Below, in pieces: positions 6,001-9,000 of a stretch of DNA of 64,000 bases; positions within the stretch are counted from its first letter, which is position 1, and every line of letters starts with the position of its first letter. Made by a program: the position numbers. Location of the stretch: contig CAVZZO010000001.1 in the NCBI GenBank assembly GCA_963779755.1, positions 1,376,001 to 1,440,000 of the forward strand, written 5' to 3'. Source of the stretch: an uncultured Gemmatimonadales bacterium. GTDB taxonomy: Bacteria > Gemmatimonadota > Gemmatimonadetes > Gemmatimonadales > GWC2-71-9.

Positions 6001-9000
6001 GCGGCCCCGCGGCGGCATCGGCAATGAGCCGGGCCAGCGTCTCGGCCGGGATGGCGTCCAGCACGTCTCCCCAGGTCCGTTGCTCGGCGGCGTGCAAGGC
6101 GCGGTCGACCGTCTGGCCGATCACCCGCCGGGTACCGGCATCGCGCGCCAGCTTTACCGCCCAGTCGCCCAGGGTCTTCTCCAGATCGGCCCGGCGTTGC
6201 TCGCCCAGCCGGCGGAATCGCTCGGCCAGGGGAATGCGCAGGAAGCTCACCACCGCATCGTTCACCGCGCGGGCAACCTGGGCCTCGATGGCCGGACTCT
6301 TCAGCTCGAAGCCCAGCCGGTCCAGCCCCCGCCTCTCGAACCCGTCCACCAGCCGCGCGATGGTGCGGTCGGTCACCACCATCTTGGCAAGGATGCGCTC
6401 GTGCAGCAGCAGATCGCGCACCGTATGGTCGAACGCGTCGCGCAGGGCGCCCTCGACCTGCCGCCGGGTATCGGGGTTCTGCAGCACCGAGCCGAGCCGC
6501 TCCACCGCGACGGGGAGATAATCGGTGATCCCCTGCTCGACGGCCCCCACCAGCCCGGGCGGCAGCCGCTCCAGCAGGGGCCGGTCGTCGCGTGCCAGGC
6601 TGTCCATCTGCTGCGTGATGAACCCGCGTACCGCGTTCTCCAGTGCCTCGCCCTCGGCCATCTGCCCCACCCACTCGTCCACCTTGCGGGCCAGTGACTC
6701 CCGGCGGCCGGCCGTCAGCACCTCGCCCAGCGGCCGGTCGCCCAGCTCGGCGCGGAGCTTCTCCTGCCAGACCTCCACCCGGGCGACGAAAGCAGGGCCG
6801 GCCGTGTACTCCGCCAGCCGCCGGGCCACTACATCGCTCAGTTCGGGCAGCGCCTGCTCGACGGTCTCCAGCAGGGACGGGCTCAGGCCCTGGCGGAGGG
6901 GGCCGCGATCGCGCTCCAGCAGGTCGTTCAGGAAACCGCCGATGGCCCGGGCGAAGGTCTCATAGACGCTCGGCGTGCTGAGCCGCTGGGCCAGGTCCTC
7001 CGGCGTCAGCAGCCGCTCGCCCACCGCCTTGCCCACGCTCTTCGCCAGACGGGCCTTGTTCTTGGGGATGGCGCCATGAAACCGGAACGGCCCGAACCCG
7101 CGCCGGTCGTGGGGATGAAACAGCATCCAGACGGCGACGGCGTTGGTGATGCCGCCGGACAAGGCACCGACCAGGACGGTGACGATGCCGGTGACGAGGA
7201 GCTGGTGGTTCATGGGTTGGGGAGTATAGGCGGCAGGGCGGCAGGGCGGCAGGGCGGCAGGTGGGCCGACCCGGACGCCTCCGCGGGCTTCTGAAACGCC
7301 CAGCGCTCGAATGATGACAGTCGAGAGGCAGGCGCTGAATACCGTGGAGCATGCCAAACGCCACCTCCAAGCCCTCGAGGCTCAGTTCCTTTCAGCGCCT
7401 CACGGCCTGGCGCGCCTGCCACGAGCTGACTCTCGCGATATATAGGCAATCCGACTCATGGCCCGAGACCGAGCGCTATGGCCTGATCTCGCAGGTCCGG
7501 CGGGCGGCCGTGTCGTGCTGCTGCAACATTGCGGAGGGCAGCGCAAAGCGTGGGAGTGCCGAGTTCAGGCGTTTTCTCGACATGGCCCTCGGTTCACTGG
7601 CCGAGATCGAGGCTCTGTTTCTCATCGCGAGAGATCTTGGGATTCTCCAGAAGACCACCTGGGGAGAACTTGAGGCTTTCCGCGACCACGCTGGCAAATT
7701 GGTTTGGGGTCTGTACCTGGCTGTCGGGAGGCGGACAACGCCGCGGCCTGCCAAGCCCAGAACGGAGAAGGGATAAGGGAACGGTCTGGCACGCCGGGCT
7801 CTTGTGCAGCATTCTCCGCCTTGCCGCCTTGCCGCCTTGCCGCCTTGCCGCCTTGCCGCCTTGCCGCCTTGCCGCCTTGCCGCCCTGCCGCCTTGCTCCT
7901 AACCCCATGTCCGCGCTATAATTCCCGGCTTATGTTCGAGGAGCTTTCGTCCAAACTGACCTCCACCCTGGCCCGCTTCACGGGCCGGGGTGTTCTGACC
8001 GAAGAGGCAGTCCGGGAGGGCCTGCGGGAGATCCGCCGGATCCTGCTCGAGGCGGACGTCAGCTTCGACCTCACGAGGGAATTCCTCGAACATGTGCAGG
8101 CCAAAGCGGTTGGGGCGGACGTGCTCAAGAGCGTCCGGCCCGGCCAGCAGCTGGTCAAGGTCGTCTACGACGAGCTGGTGGCCATGCTGGGCGAGACGCG
8201 CGCCCCGCTGGCCGTCGCCTCGGTGCCGCCCACCCTCATCCTGGTGGTGGGGCTCCAGGGCTCGGGCAAGACGACCACCGTGGCCAAGCTGGCCCGGCGG
8301 CTCAAGCAGGAGCAGAAGGCGCCCTTCGTGGTGGCGGCCGACGTCTACCGTCCCGCCGCCGAAGAGCAGCTGAAGCAGCTGGCGAAGCAGGTGGAGGTCG
8401 GTGCCTTCGGCATGACGGATTGGGTGGGGCAGGGTGGACCTGCCGTCCTGCCGTCTTCCCGTCCTGCGGCGGGGTCGGTGGATGTGGTGGGGCTCGTCCG
8501 CTCGGGCATGGAGGCCGCGGGCAAGGCCCGGGCCCGGACGGTCATCGTGGATACCGCCGGCCGGCTGCAGATAGACGAAGAGATGATGCACGAGCTGCAG
8601 GGCCTGAAGGGCGCCCTGCGGCCGCAGGAGATCCTCCTCGTGGCCGACGGCATGACCGGCCAGGATGCGGTCCGCATCGCCCGCGGGTTCCACGAGGCGC
8701 TGGGCATCACCGGGGTGGTGCTCACCAAGATGGACGGCGACAGCCGCGGCGGCGCGGCGCTTTCCATCTATGGCGTCACCCACGCGCCCATCAAGTTCGT
8801 GGGCACCGGCGAGCGGGTGGATGCGCTGGAGCCGTTCCACCCCGAGCGGATGGCGGGGCGCATTCTCCAGCAGGGGGATATCCTCTCGCTGGTGGAGAAG
8901 GCCCAGGCCACGGTGGACGAGGCCGAGGCCGAGAAGCTGGCGAAGAAGGCGGGCAGCAAGAAGGGGCTCGATCTGGGCGACTTCCTCACCGCCATGAAGC

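What a model noticed while it worked through the whole genome (the two positions that open the first line are those of the whole stretch)
7890..7935. About one in nine transcription-unit starts is leaderless or near-leaderless
A TANNNT -10 box lies 5-9 bases before the start codon in about 12% of unit-first genes, which then lack a Shine-Dalgarno sequence, so Gemmatimonadota use leaderless or very short-leader mRNAs, for housekeeping genes such as ffh, lepA, leuS and smpB too.
Evidence so far: 208 of 1793 first genes vs 41-46 in equal windows further up; SD in 3 of 208 vs 782 of 1585; TTG 17 nt before the box in 22 vs <=6 at other spacings. At ffh 27 of 27 genomes have the box 7-12 nt before ATG and none an SD.
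(Added by a program. Inside this text positions count along the whole contig: contig position 1,376,001 is position 1 of the stretch shown here. "Call 12" and the like, gene names such as g00115 and contig names such as C1 are that model's own, and its searches are not shown. The text may have been shortened before it was handed on; [...] marks where a part breaks off. The agent that wrote the report below was given it as the finding of a first reader that could run no searches.)

Follow-up and report, generated by a model that had tools for sequence, protein, structure and literature searches.

The report
Leaderless gene starts in Gemmatimonadales
In this soil bacterium and its order, about one transcription unit in eleven has its promoter so close to the start codon that the message should begin at or just before it; this is a known way of expressing genes, and the fresher detail is a four-base promoter signature shared by ffh, ribosomal-protein and rRNA promoters.

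Summary
With starts called without upstream information, TANNNT lies 5-9 nt before the start in 216 of 2234 unit-first genes (shuffles 51), peaking at 6; 191 start with ATG. The box is a sigma-70 -10 element: it has a -35 at 17 nt and precedes tRNA genes too. Net of chance the share is 7-9%. Two corrections. (1) It is an order-level trait: a caller-free test is significant in 78 of 83 Gemmatimonadales genomes, 7 of 19 in the rest of the class, 0 of 19 in other classes. (2) It is already in print: Table S7 of PMC12340547 lists a '-10-motif' before ORFs for all five Gemmatimonadota genomes it names. The scan noted this layout before in other genomes. ffh is atypical: spacer 8-10 in 40 of 43, because its promoter carries GGCT four bases after the -10 box. 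That signature is enriched order-wide (529 vs 82) and marks rRNA, rpsA, rplU, rpmH and yceD-rpmF promoters; outside the order the same ffh promoter lies 32-137 nt upstream. No transcription-start data were available, so start sites are inferred.

The parts
7893..7898 (+). -35 element (TTGCTC) of the ffh operon promoter, 18 nt before the -10 box
   Evidence: T[TA]G at 16-18 nt in 37 of 43 orthologues
7917..7922 (+). -10 element TATAAT, 9 nt before the ffh ATG
   Evidence: TANNNT at 6-12 nt in 43 of 43 orthologues of the order
7927..7930 (+). GGCT signature at positions 5-8 after the -10 box; inferred to hold or set the transcription start
   Evidence: 38 of 43 ffh orthologues; 529 vs 82 order-wide
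7932..9320 (+). ffh, signal recognition particle protein; first gene of the unit, no SD
   Evidence: TIGR00959 543.6 bits, over cut-off, match from residue 2
9373..11960 (+). rpsP (9373-9639), rimM, trmD, rplS, rnhB downstream on the same strand; inferred co-transcribed with ffh
7223..7228 (-). TATACT box 9 nt before the ATG (7213) of a DUF445 gene (5648-7213)
34503..34508 (-). TATCTT box 5 nt before the ATG (34497) of a family-4 glycosyltransferase gene
42641..42646 (-). TAGCTT box 5 nt before the ATG (42635) of an ArsA/GET3-family ATPase gene
56941..56946 (+). TAGATT box 6 nt before the ATG (56953) of a 434-aa ORF with no Pfam or NCBIfam hit
54932..54937 (+). TATGTT box 11 nt before the ATG (54949) of a TetR-family gene (short-leader class)
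21491..21496 (-). TAACTT box 6 nt before an alternative ATG (21484) of a serine beta-lactamase-like gene; my caller chose a GTG further down

Best explanation
The hexamer is the -10 element of ordinary housekeeping sigma-70 promoters (local consensus TANMTT). RNA polymerase starts about 7 bases downstream of it, so at spacers of 5-8 nt the first base of the mRNA is the A of the AUG (leaderless mRNA), and at 9-12 nt the mRNA carries a leader of about 1-6 nt, too short for an SD. Such mRNAs are translated by 5'-end initiation without SD pairing, as in Actinobacteria and Deinococcus-Thermus, alongside normal SD-led initiation for most genes. About 7-10% of unit-first genes (about 5% of all genes) are built this way. 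The habit is strong in the order Gemmatimonadales, weak in the rest of the class and not detected in the other classes searched. ffh belongs to the short-leader tail: its promoter is an older, conserved promoter of a ribosome/growth-gene class (-35, -10, four bases, GGCT) whose 25-130-nt leader was deleted in this order. Shown: motif, spacing, -35, tRNA control, conservation, taxonomic range. Inferred: the start sites and the mode of translation.
For: Peak at 5-7 nt, 216 vs 51 shuffled; not seen at internal ATGs (1-7 per position of 1894) and weak at operon-internal genes (27 of 1378); specific to TA...T among the hexamers tried; caller-free pattern 102 at 5-7 vs 13-23 at other spacers and 4776 vs 1390 across 83 genomes of the order. 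The same box lies 8-14 nt before 17 of 60 tRNA/tmRNA calls, shuffle 2.8, max 7, so it is a transcription signal. -35 peak at 17 nt. SD-led first genes show boxes mainly from 26 nt on. ATG in 191 of 216 vs 1219 of 1980; weaker folding of the first 40 nt (-7.6 vs -8.6 and -10.8 kcal/mol). Purine avoided at position 7, the default start, when the AUG lies at 8 or 9: 4 of 44 and 1 of 26 vs 83 of 182 in leadered promoters. Outside the order the ffh promoter with -35 and GGCT lies 32-137 nt upstream in 8 of 12 genomes of the class. Geometry matches PMC12340547 (6-7 bp, reporter-tested), PMC6028130 (6-8 nt) and PMC5730371 (start at position 6-9).
Against: No start site was measured in any Gemmatimonadota here. 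SD absence is weak evidence: four of ten decoy hexamers give similarly low SD rates (2 of 42, 2 of 40, 4 of 60, 4 of 57). About a quarter of the 216 are expected by chance. TTG at -35 is rare in the 5-7 class (8 of 170). The tool's backwards-pattern control is as high as the real count in many genomes (G000: 61 vs 102); I set it aside because it does not depend on spacing (51 at 17-19). Short leaders lower translation in Caulobacter (10.1101/2020.05.06.081141), which sits uneasily with conserved 8-12-nt spacers at housekeeping genes. The pattern was tuned on G000, and genomes are related.
Confidence: 0.87

Rival explanations
1. The hexamer acts on the mRNA: an A/U-rich, unstructured, non-SD translation signal (bS1-type or Bacteroidota-type enhancer) in leadered transcripts.
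For: It occupies the SD slot and excludes SD; boxed genes have weakly folded starts.
Against: The same box precedes untranslated tRNA/tmRNA genes; it has a -35 at 17 nt; it is nearly absent before operon-internal genes; only T1, A2, T6 are fixed, other AT-rich hexamers are not enriched alike; at ffh it moves away with its -35 in other orders.
Confidence: 0.05
2. Artefact of the gene caller, of base composition, or of an upstream stop codon (TAA/TAG) supplying the TA.
For: Starts are predicted; my caller miscalls some (rpsP).
Against: My caller uses no upstream sequence; caller-free counts reproduce the peak; shuffles give 51; the TA is an upstream stop in only 7 of 243 cases; ffh, lepA and leuS starts are fixed by homology; other classes give a ratio of 1.00 with the same test.
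Confidence: 0.02
3. At ffh-type promoters (spacer 8-10, GGCT) there is no short leader: pyrimidines at positions 7-8 push the start to position 9-10 by open-complex scrunching, as at E. coli rrnB P1, so the mRNA begins at or within 1-2 nt of the AUG. This is a rival for the short-leader step only.
For: GGCT puts C and T at positions 7-8; at spacer 8 the A of ATG is position 9 (yceD, yggS-like gene, 9 ffh orthologues); position 7 is a purine in 1 of 26 spacer-8 genes; rrnB P1 starts at position 9 (10.1101/2020.06.05.136721, passages).
Against: Spacers of 10 and 12 (10 of 43 ffh) lie beyond the usual range of 6-9 (PMC5730371, passages); position 9 after GGCT shows no purine preference in other promoters (11 of 26); an invariant G at position 6 is a ready start.
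Confidence: 0.3

Closest known systems
'-10-motif adjacent to ORF' genes of Deinococcus-Thermus and the domain-wide survey in the same paper (Zhong et al. 2025, PMC12340547)
   Same: TANNNT 6-7 bp before the start codon, in place of an SD; its Table S7 classes a '-10-motif' within 20 bp of ORFs in G. phototrophica (215 of 3911), Gemmatirosa kalamazoonensis (237 of 6390), G. aurantiaca (171 of 3947), G. groenlandica (97 of 4391) and Pseudogemmatithrix spongiicola (296 of 2935), with a TAGMTT-like consensus like the one here.
   Different: About 30% of ORFs in Deinococcus-Thermus vs about 5% here; the main text does not mention Gemmatimonadota (0 hits; Fig. S7 not visible); a detectable -35 here; bS21 is kept here (120 of 121) but gave no hit in Thermus or Deinococcus controls.
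TA-led (leaderless) genes, Zheng et al. 2011 (PMC3160421), and GeneMarkS-2 group C genomes (PMC6028130)
   Same: Same motif, same distance, same dual SD-led/promoter-led architecture; Acidobacteria 13% and delta-Proteobacteria 16% in Zheng's Table 2 show Gram-negative examples.
   Different: Group C genomes have 25-50% leaderless transcripts; this genome has 7-10% of first genes by exact TANNNT. Neither paper's visible text gives a value for Gemmatimonadota.
Leaderless and 1-5-nt-leader mRNAs of Deinococcus deserti (PMC4007540)
   Same: Mixture of exact leaderless (47%) and 1-5-nt leaders (13%), ratio about 3.6:1; here excess at 5-7 vs 8-11 nt is about 144:43.
   Different: Measured by dRNA-seq there, inferred here; far larger share; no conserved -35 found there.
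Growth-controlled promoters with a special discriminator, e.g. E. coli rrnB P1 (10.1101/2020.06.05.136721)
   Same: A fixed G+C-rich stretch between -10 and start shared by rRNA and ribosomal-protein promoters.
   Different: Here the conserved part is GGCT at positions 5-8, positions 1-4 vary; start site and regulation untested; DksA matches are below cut-off.

Membership tests
Bacterial leaderless (TA-led / group C-type) genes | TANNNT localised 5-8 nt before the start codon, above shuffled background | tested here: met
   216 vs 51; mode 6
Bacterial leaderless (TA-led / group C-type) genes | Restricted to first genes of transcription units | tested here: met
   216 of 2234 first vs 27 of 1378 internal genes
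Bacterial leaderless (TA-led / group C-type) genes | The box behaves as a sigma-70 promoter element | tested here: met
   -35 at 17 nt; same box before 17 of 60 tRNA/tmRNA calls; sequence evidence only
Bacterial leaderless (TA-led / group C-type) genes | No SD before the start, with a normal anti-SD in 16S rRNA | tested here: met
   6 of 216; canonical 16S tail at G000:C3; partly geometric
Bacterial leaderless (TA-led / group C-type) genes | Strong AUG preference | tested here: met
   191 of 216 vs 1219 of 1980
Bacterial leaderless (TA-led / group C-type) genes | Transcription start mapped at or within 5 nt of the start codon | not testable with these tools
   no RNA holder listed
GeneMarkS-2 group C genome | Leaderless share of 25-50% of transcripts | tested here: not met
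   7-10% of first genes by exact TANNNT; a floor, and GeneMarkS-2 itself was not run
bS21-less leaderless-rich lineages (Actinobacteria, Deinococcus-Thermus; link recalled) | Loss of ribosomal protein bS21 | tested here: not met
   bS21 in 120 of 121 genomes, two copies in G000
Non-SD leadered genomes (group B, Bacteroidota type) | Same A-rich motif before first and internal genes; SD little used | tested here: not met
   SD in 542 of 1378 internal genes, box in 27
Stringently/growth-rate controlled promoters (rrnB P1 type) | Shared discriminator-region signature at rRNA and ribosomal-protein promoters | tested here: met
   GGCT at positions 5-8 before rRNA, ffh-rpsP, rpsA, rplU-rpmA, yceD-rpmF, rpmH: 6 of 16 matches in G000
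Stringently/growth-rate controlled promoters (rrnB P1 type) | Repression by ppGpp/DksA or by low initiating NTP; unusual start position | not testable with these tools
   needs transcription assays; DksA below cut-off, CarD-domain hit only in a 1610-aa frame

The most novel reading that the evidence does not exclude
Gemmatimonadetes have an undescribed promoter class for the translation machinery (-35, 17/18 nt, TANNNT, four bases, GGCT) in which GGCT sets a growth- or NTP-dependent start site. In Gemmatimonadales the AUGs of ffh and yceD were moved up against it, so that the choice of start (G at position 6 or the A of AUG at 9-10) switches the mRNA between a 3-4-nt leader and a leaderless form, tying SRP-protein synthesis to growth state by start-site selection alone.
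Probability: 0.12. Interest if true: 0.7.

Novelty: new member of a known kind. Interest (0 to 1): 0.36.

Why it matters
Practical: start codons and promoters of Gemmatimonadales, an abundant soil order, can be annotated better with a dual SD/promoter model; several hundred genes per genome are affected at most. Evolutionary: ffh gives a clean series in which one conserved promoter keeps its sequence while the leader shrinks from 32-137 nt to 0-6 nt in one order, and lepA, leuS and smpB orthologues switch between the states, which argues that leaderless starts here are derived and easily gained, in a lineage that keeps bS21 and a normal anti-SD. The GGCT signature, if functional, is a handle on growth control of ribosome synthesis in a phylum for which my searches found no promoter study. 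The core claim, leaderless genes marked by an adjacent -10 box, is well known.

Tried and rejected
RNA evidence: no RNA holder listed for window 4001-14000; read laying not used. bS21 loss as cause: rejected. Stop codon of the upstream gene: 7 of 243. Extended -10 TG: no clear peak (13 of 216 vs 5-13 at other offsets). Caller-free count with plain TANNNT: only a weak bump (160-248 at 5-9 vs 143-219 at 10-30); six sharper patterns were tried on G000 and YTANMTT chosen, so G000 is in-sample and the other 120 genomes are out-of-sample. The backwards-pattern controls were not used as the null: they count a different word pair and do not change with spacing; they often equal or exceed the real counts. 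GGCT in the four 400-kb blocks of relatives: too few promoters to show anything (0-1 at offset 4). Purine preference at position 9 after GGCT: not found (11 of 26). Stand-alone CarD: not found with this query. Literature: 'leaderless'+'Gemmatimonas', 'leaderless'+'Gemmatimonad', 'Gemmatimonas'+'transcription start site', four-term promoter search, 'Gemmatimonadota'+'Shine-Dalgarno'+'promoter', 'GGCT motif'+'discriminator'+'promoter' (0 papers) gave no paper on the subject; the library lacks most subscription papers. Zheng 2011's held supplement has no Gemmatimonas row and its per-genome web table was not visible; GeneMarkS-2 supplements name G. aurantiaca only in a genome list (one file not searched).

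Full report
1. The site. The window lies at G000:C1:1376001-1440000 of a 4.23-Mb, 68.5% G+C genome. The closest named ffh relatives (74-77% identity) are Gemmatimonadales MAGs. At the finding the sequence reads TTGCTC (7893-7898), 18 nt, TATAAT (7917-7922), 9 nt, ATG (7932). The gene is ffh (TIGR00959 over cut-off from residue 2), followed by rpsP, rimM, trmD, rplS and rnhB. There is no SD.

2. Genome-wide check. I wrote a caller that picks starts from coding score and a start-codon prior only, so upstream motifs cannot steer it (3614 genes). Unit-first genes were those divergent from, or at least 40 nt behind, the previous gene (2234; inflated by some late starts such as rpsP). TANNNT lies 5-9 nt before the start in 216 of 2234; dinucleotide shuffles of the upstream 20, 40 or 80 nt give 48-51, maximum 64. 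Among SD-less first genes the counts at spacers 5-11 are 42, 76, 49, 25, 20, 15, 12 against about 7.5: a peak at 6 and a tail to 11. Operon-internal genes give 27 of 1378 and internal ATGs no peak. Net of chance the share is 165 of 2234 (7.4%); allowing near-equal alternative starts gives 284 less 77-90 decoys, about 9%. Stricter gap definitions leave the raw share at about 10%. 'One in nine' is thus a raw figure; one in 11-13 is the net figure, and a floor since only exact TANNNT is counted. A caller-free pattern, YTANMTT then ATG, gives 102 at spacers 5-7 and 13-23 in other three-base windows.

3. The box is a promoter. TTG peaks 17 nt before it: 11 vs at most 5 in the 216 set, 22 vs at most 7 in the 284 set; T[TA] 51 vs 5-28. 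The same box lies 8-14 nt before 17 of 60 ARAGORN tRNA/tmRNA calls, against 0-5 in other windows and 2.8 in shuffles; these RNAs are not translated. The TA is an upstream stop codon in 7 of 243 cases. Boxed genes start with ATG in 191 of 216 (others 1219 of 1980) and have weaker folding over the first 40 nt. Position 7 after the box, the default start site (PMC5730371, passages), is a purine in 4 of 44 spacer-7 and 1 of 26 spacer-8 genes against 83 of 182 leadered promoters, with 33-40% expected from ATG context: selection appears to clear competing starts so that the A of the AUG is used. This is not seen at spacers 9-11 (9 of 24).

4. Range. The caller-free pattern at spacers 5-7 versus 17-19 was counted in 121 genomes. 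Order: 4776 vs 1390, significant at p<0.01 in 78 of 83. Rest of the class: 616 vs 357, 7 of 19. Other classes: 2419 vs 2415, 0 of 19. Without the unpublished G057 and G097: 77 of 82 and 7 of 18. Kin are not independent and the pattern was tuned on G000, but plain TANNNT on 400-kb samples agrees: G067 (same order) 16 of 201 vs 5.0 shuffled; G064 10 of 208 vs 3.8 and G058 5 of 166 vs 1.6 (same class); G032 3 of 228 vs 3.4, and pooled ffh loci 0 of 95 and 0 of 31 (other classes). The tool's backwards control often equals the real count; it does not vary with spacing and was not used. bS21 is present in 120 of 121 genomes, so its loss is not the cause.

5. Housekeeping genes. I read 70 of the 117 ffh matches (30 best-scoring, 40 chosen across families). 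All 43 from the order have the box at 6-12 nt (6: 2; 8: 9; 9: 22; 10: 9; 12: 1), 37 with a -35-like triplet, 1 with a loose SD match; one of the 43 is G057. All 11 named Gemmatimonadota records show 8-10; 0 of 65 other named ffh loci do. Outside the order 1 of 27 has a box at 5-12, in an A+T-rich stretch. With starts chosen without regard to the box, orthologues in the order give lepA 20 of 31, leuS 21 of 30, smpB 13 of 30 at 5-12 nt; smpB has 11 more at 13-24, mostly without SD (30 or 31 of 44 matches each). These genes slide between leaderless, short-leader and leadered states.

6. Why ffh sits at 8-10. In 38 of 43 orthologues GGCT follows the box after exactly four bases. In 8 of 12 genomes from other orders of the class the same promoter, with -35 and GGCT, lies 32-137 nt upstream (7 of 11 without G097); in 15 genomes of other classes GGCT is not found there. 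So the promoter is old and the leader was lost in Gemmatimonadales; direction is inferred from the outgroups, no tree was built. GGCT is not peculiar to ffh. Among T[TA]G-17/18-TANNNT sites of G000 it occurs 16 times at offset 4 and 0-5 times at other offsets, the top word-position pair of all tetramers. Across 46 genomes of the order: 529 at offset 4, 82 at offset 7, higher in all 46; orthologous promoters are counted repeatedly. Of the 16 in G000, six lead the rRNA operon, ffh-rpsP, rpsA, rplU-rpmA, yceD-rpmF and rpmH-rnpA; others lead prs, a sigma-70-family gene, a zinc-ribbon gene, three enzymes and an integrase; three lead nothing recognised (rpmF named from its sequence by recall). This looks like a signature of growth-controlled promoters (inference, by analogy with E. 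coli rrnB P1; 10.1101/2020.06.05.136721, passages). Where it starts RNA is open: G at position 6 gives ffh a 3-7-nt leader; scrunching to position 9-10 makes it leaderless. I favour the first, since position 9 shows no purine preference (11 of 26) and spacers of 10-12 exceed the usual range.

7. Mechanism. Shown by sequence: a -10 box with a weak -35 at promoter spacing from the AUG in 7-10% of first genes. Inferred: RNA begins at the AUG (spacer 5-8) or 1-6 nt before it (9-12), and ribosomes initiate at the 5' end without SD pairing, as established for leaderless mRNA elsewhere. Short leaders reduce translation in Caulobacter (10.1101/2020.05.06.081141, passages), so they may tune down low-copy factors such as Ffh while downstream ribosomal genes use their own sites; untested.

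8. What is known. PMC12340547 (passages, section 6 part 1, section 11, rows of Tables S6 and S7) classes a '-10-motif' within 20 bp of ORFs in all five Gemmatimonadota genomes its Table S6 names: 215 of 3911, 237 of 6390, 171 of 3947, 97 of 4391, 296 of 2935 (2-10%). The main text does not name the phylum; Fig. S7, which I could not see, may. Zheng 2011 (PMC3160421; parts 1-3 of 7) defines TA-led genes and finds them in 207 of 953 bacteria. GeneMarkS-2 (PMC6028130; abstract and passages) defines group C. D. deserti (PMC4007540; passages) has 47% exact and 13% 1-5-nt leaders. PMC10783764 (passages) treats only the anti-SD of the class. Six searches found no paper on Gemmatimonadota leaderless genes, start sites or a GGCT promoter motif; per-genome tables of Zheng and GeneMarkS-2 that I could not see may list Gemmatimonas. 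The scan has noted the same layout in eight other genomes.

9. Verdict. Real, well supported, and a new member of a known kind; the core claim is anticipated in a supplement and the phylum-wide wording is too broad. What is added is the restriction to one order, the leader loss at ffh, and the GGCT promoter class, which deserves its own follow-up. Interest 0.36.

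Noticed in passing
window 7927-7930; G000:C3:56476, C1:2084507, C1:2212788, C1:2313256 and others: GGCT exactly four bases after the -10 box marks promoters of rRNA, rpsA, rplU-rpmA, yceD-rpmF, rpmH, prs and ffh; enriched 529 vs 82 across 46 genomes of the order; no paper found.
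   Followed up: partly
window 7816-7895: Ten tandem copies of an 8-mer (CCGCCTTG) run up to the ffh promoter, the last copy supplying the -35 TTG; a related G+C-rich repeat precedes the DUF445 promoter on the other strand, and similar repeats lie before lepA and ffh in relatives.
   Followed up: no
window 7351-7776 (+): A four-helix-bundle gene (TIGR02436, PF05635) sits between the two repeat tracts and the divergent DUF445 and ffh promoters; my caller missed it.
   Followed up: partly
G000 tRNA and tmRNA genes: 17 of 60 calls have the -10 box only 8-14 nt before the mature 5' end, implying very short pre-tRNA leaders; one tRNA-Arg has it at 6 nt.
   Followed up: partly
G000:C3:1328617-1328778 and C3:1402358-1402516: Two bS21 genes in this genome; many genomes of the same family also have two or more.
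   Followed up: no
lepA loci L071-L100: Start codon follows leader state: ATG in 19 of 20 with the box at 5-12 nt, GTG or TTG in 8 of the other 11; confounded with family.
   Followed up: partly
window 34497 (-) and 34535 (+): Divergent genes only 37 nt apart: one leaderless-type (box at 5 nt), the other SD-led, so the promoters must overlap the coding regions.
   Followed up: no
window 20585-21484 (-): Serine beta-lactamase-like gene (PF13354; below the class A NCBIfam cut-off) with a box 6 nt before an upstream ATG.
   Followed up: no
G000:C1:1480247-1480414: The only CarD/TRCF domain hit is in a long frame (Mfd-like); no stand-alone CarD found with this query; two DksA-like matches below cut-off.
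   Followed up: no
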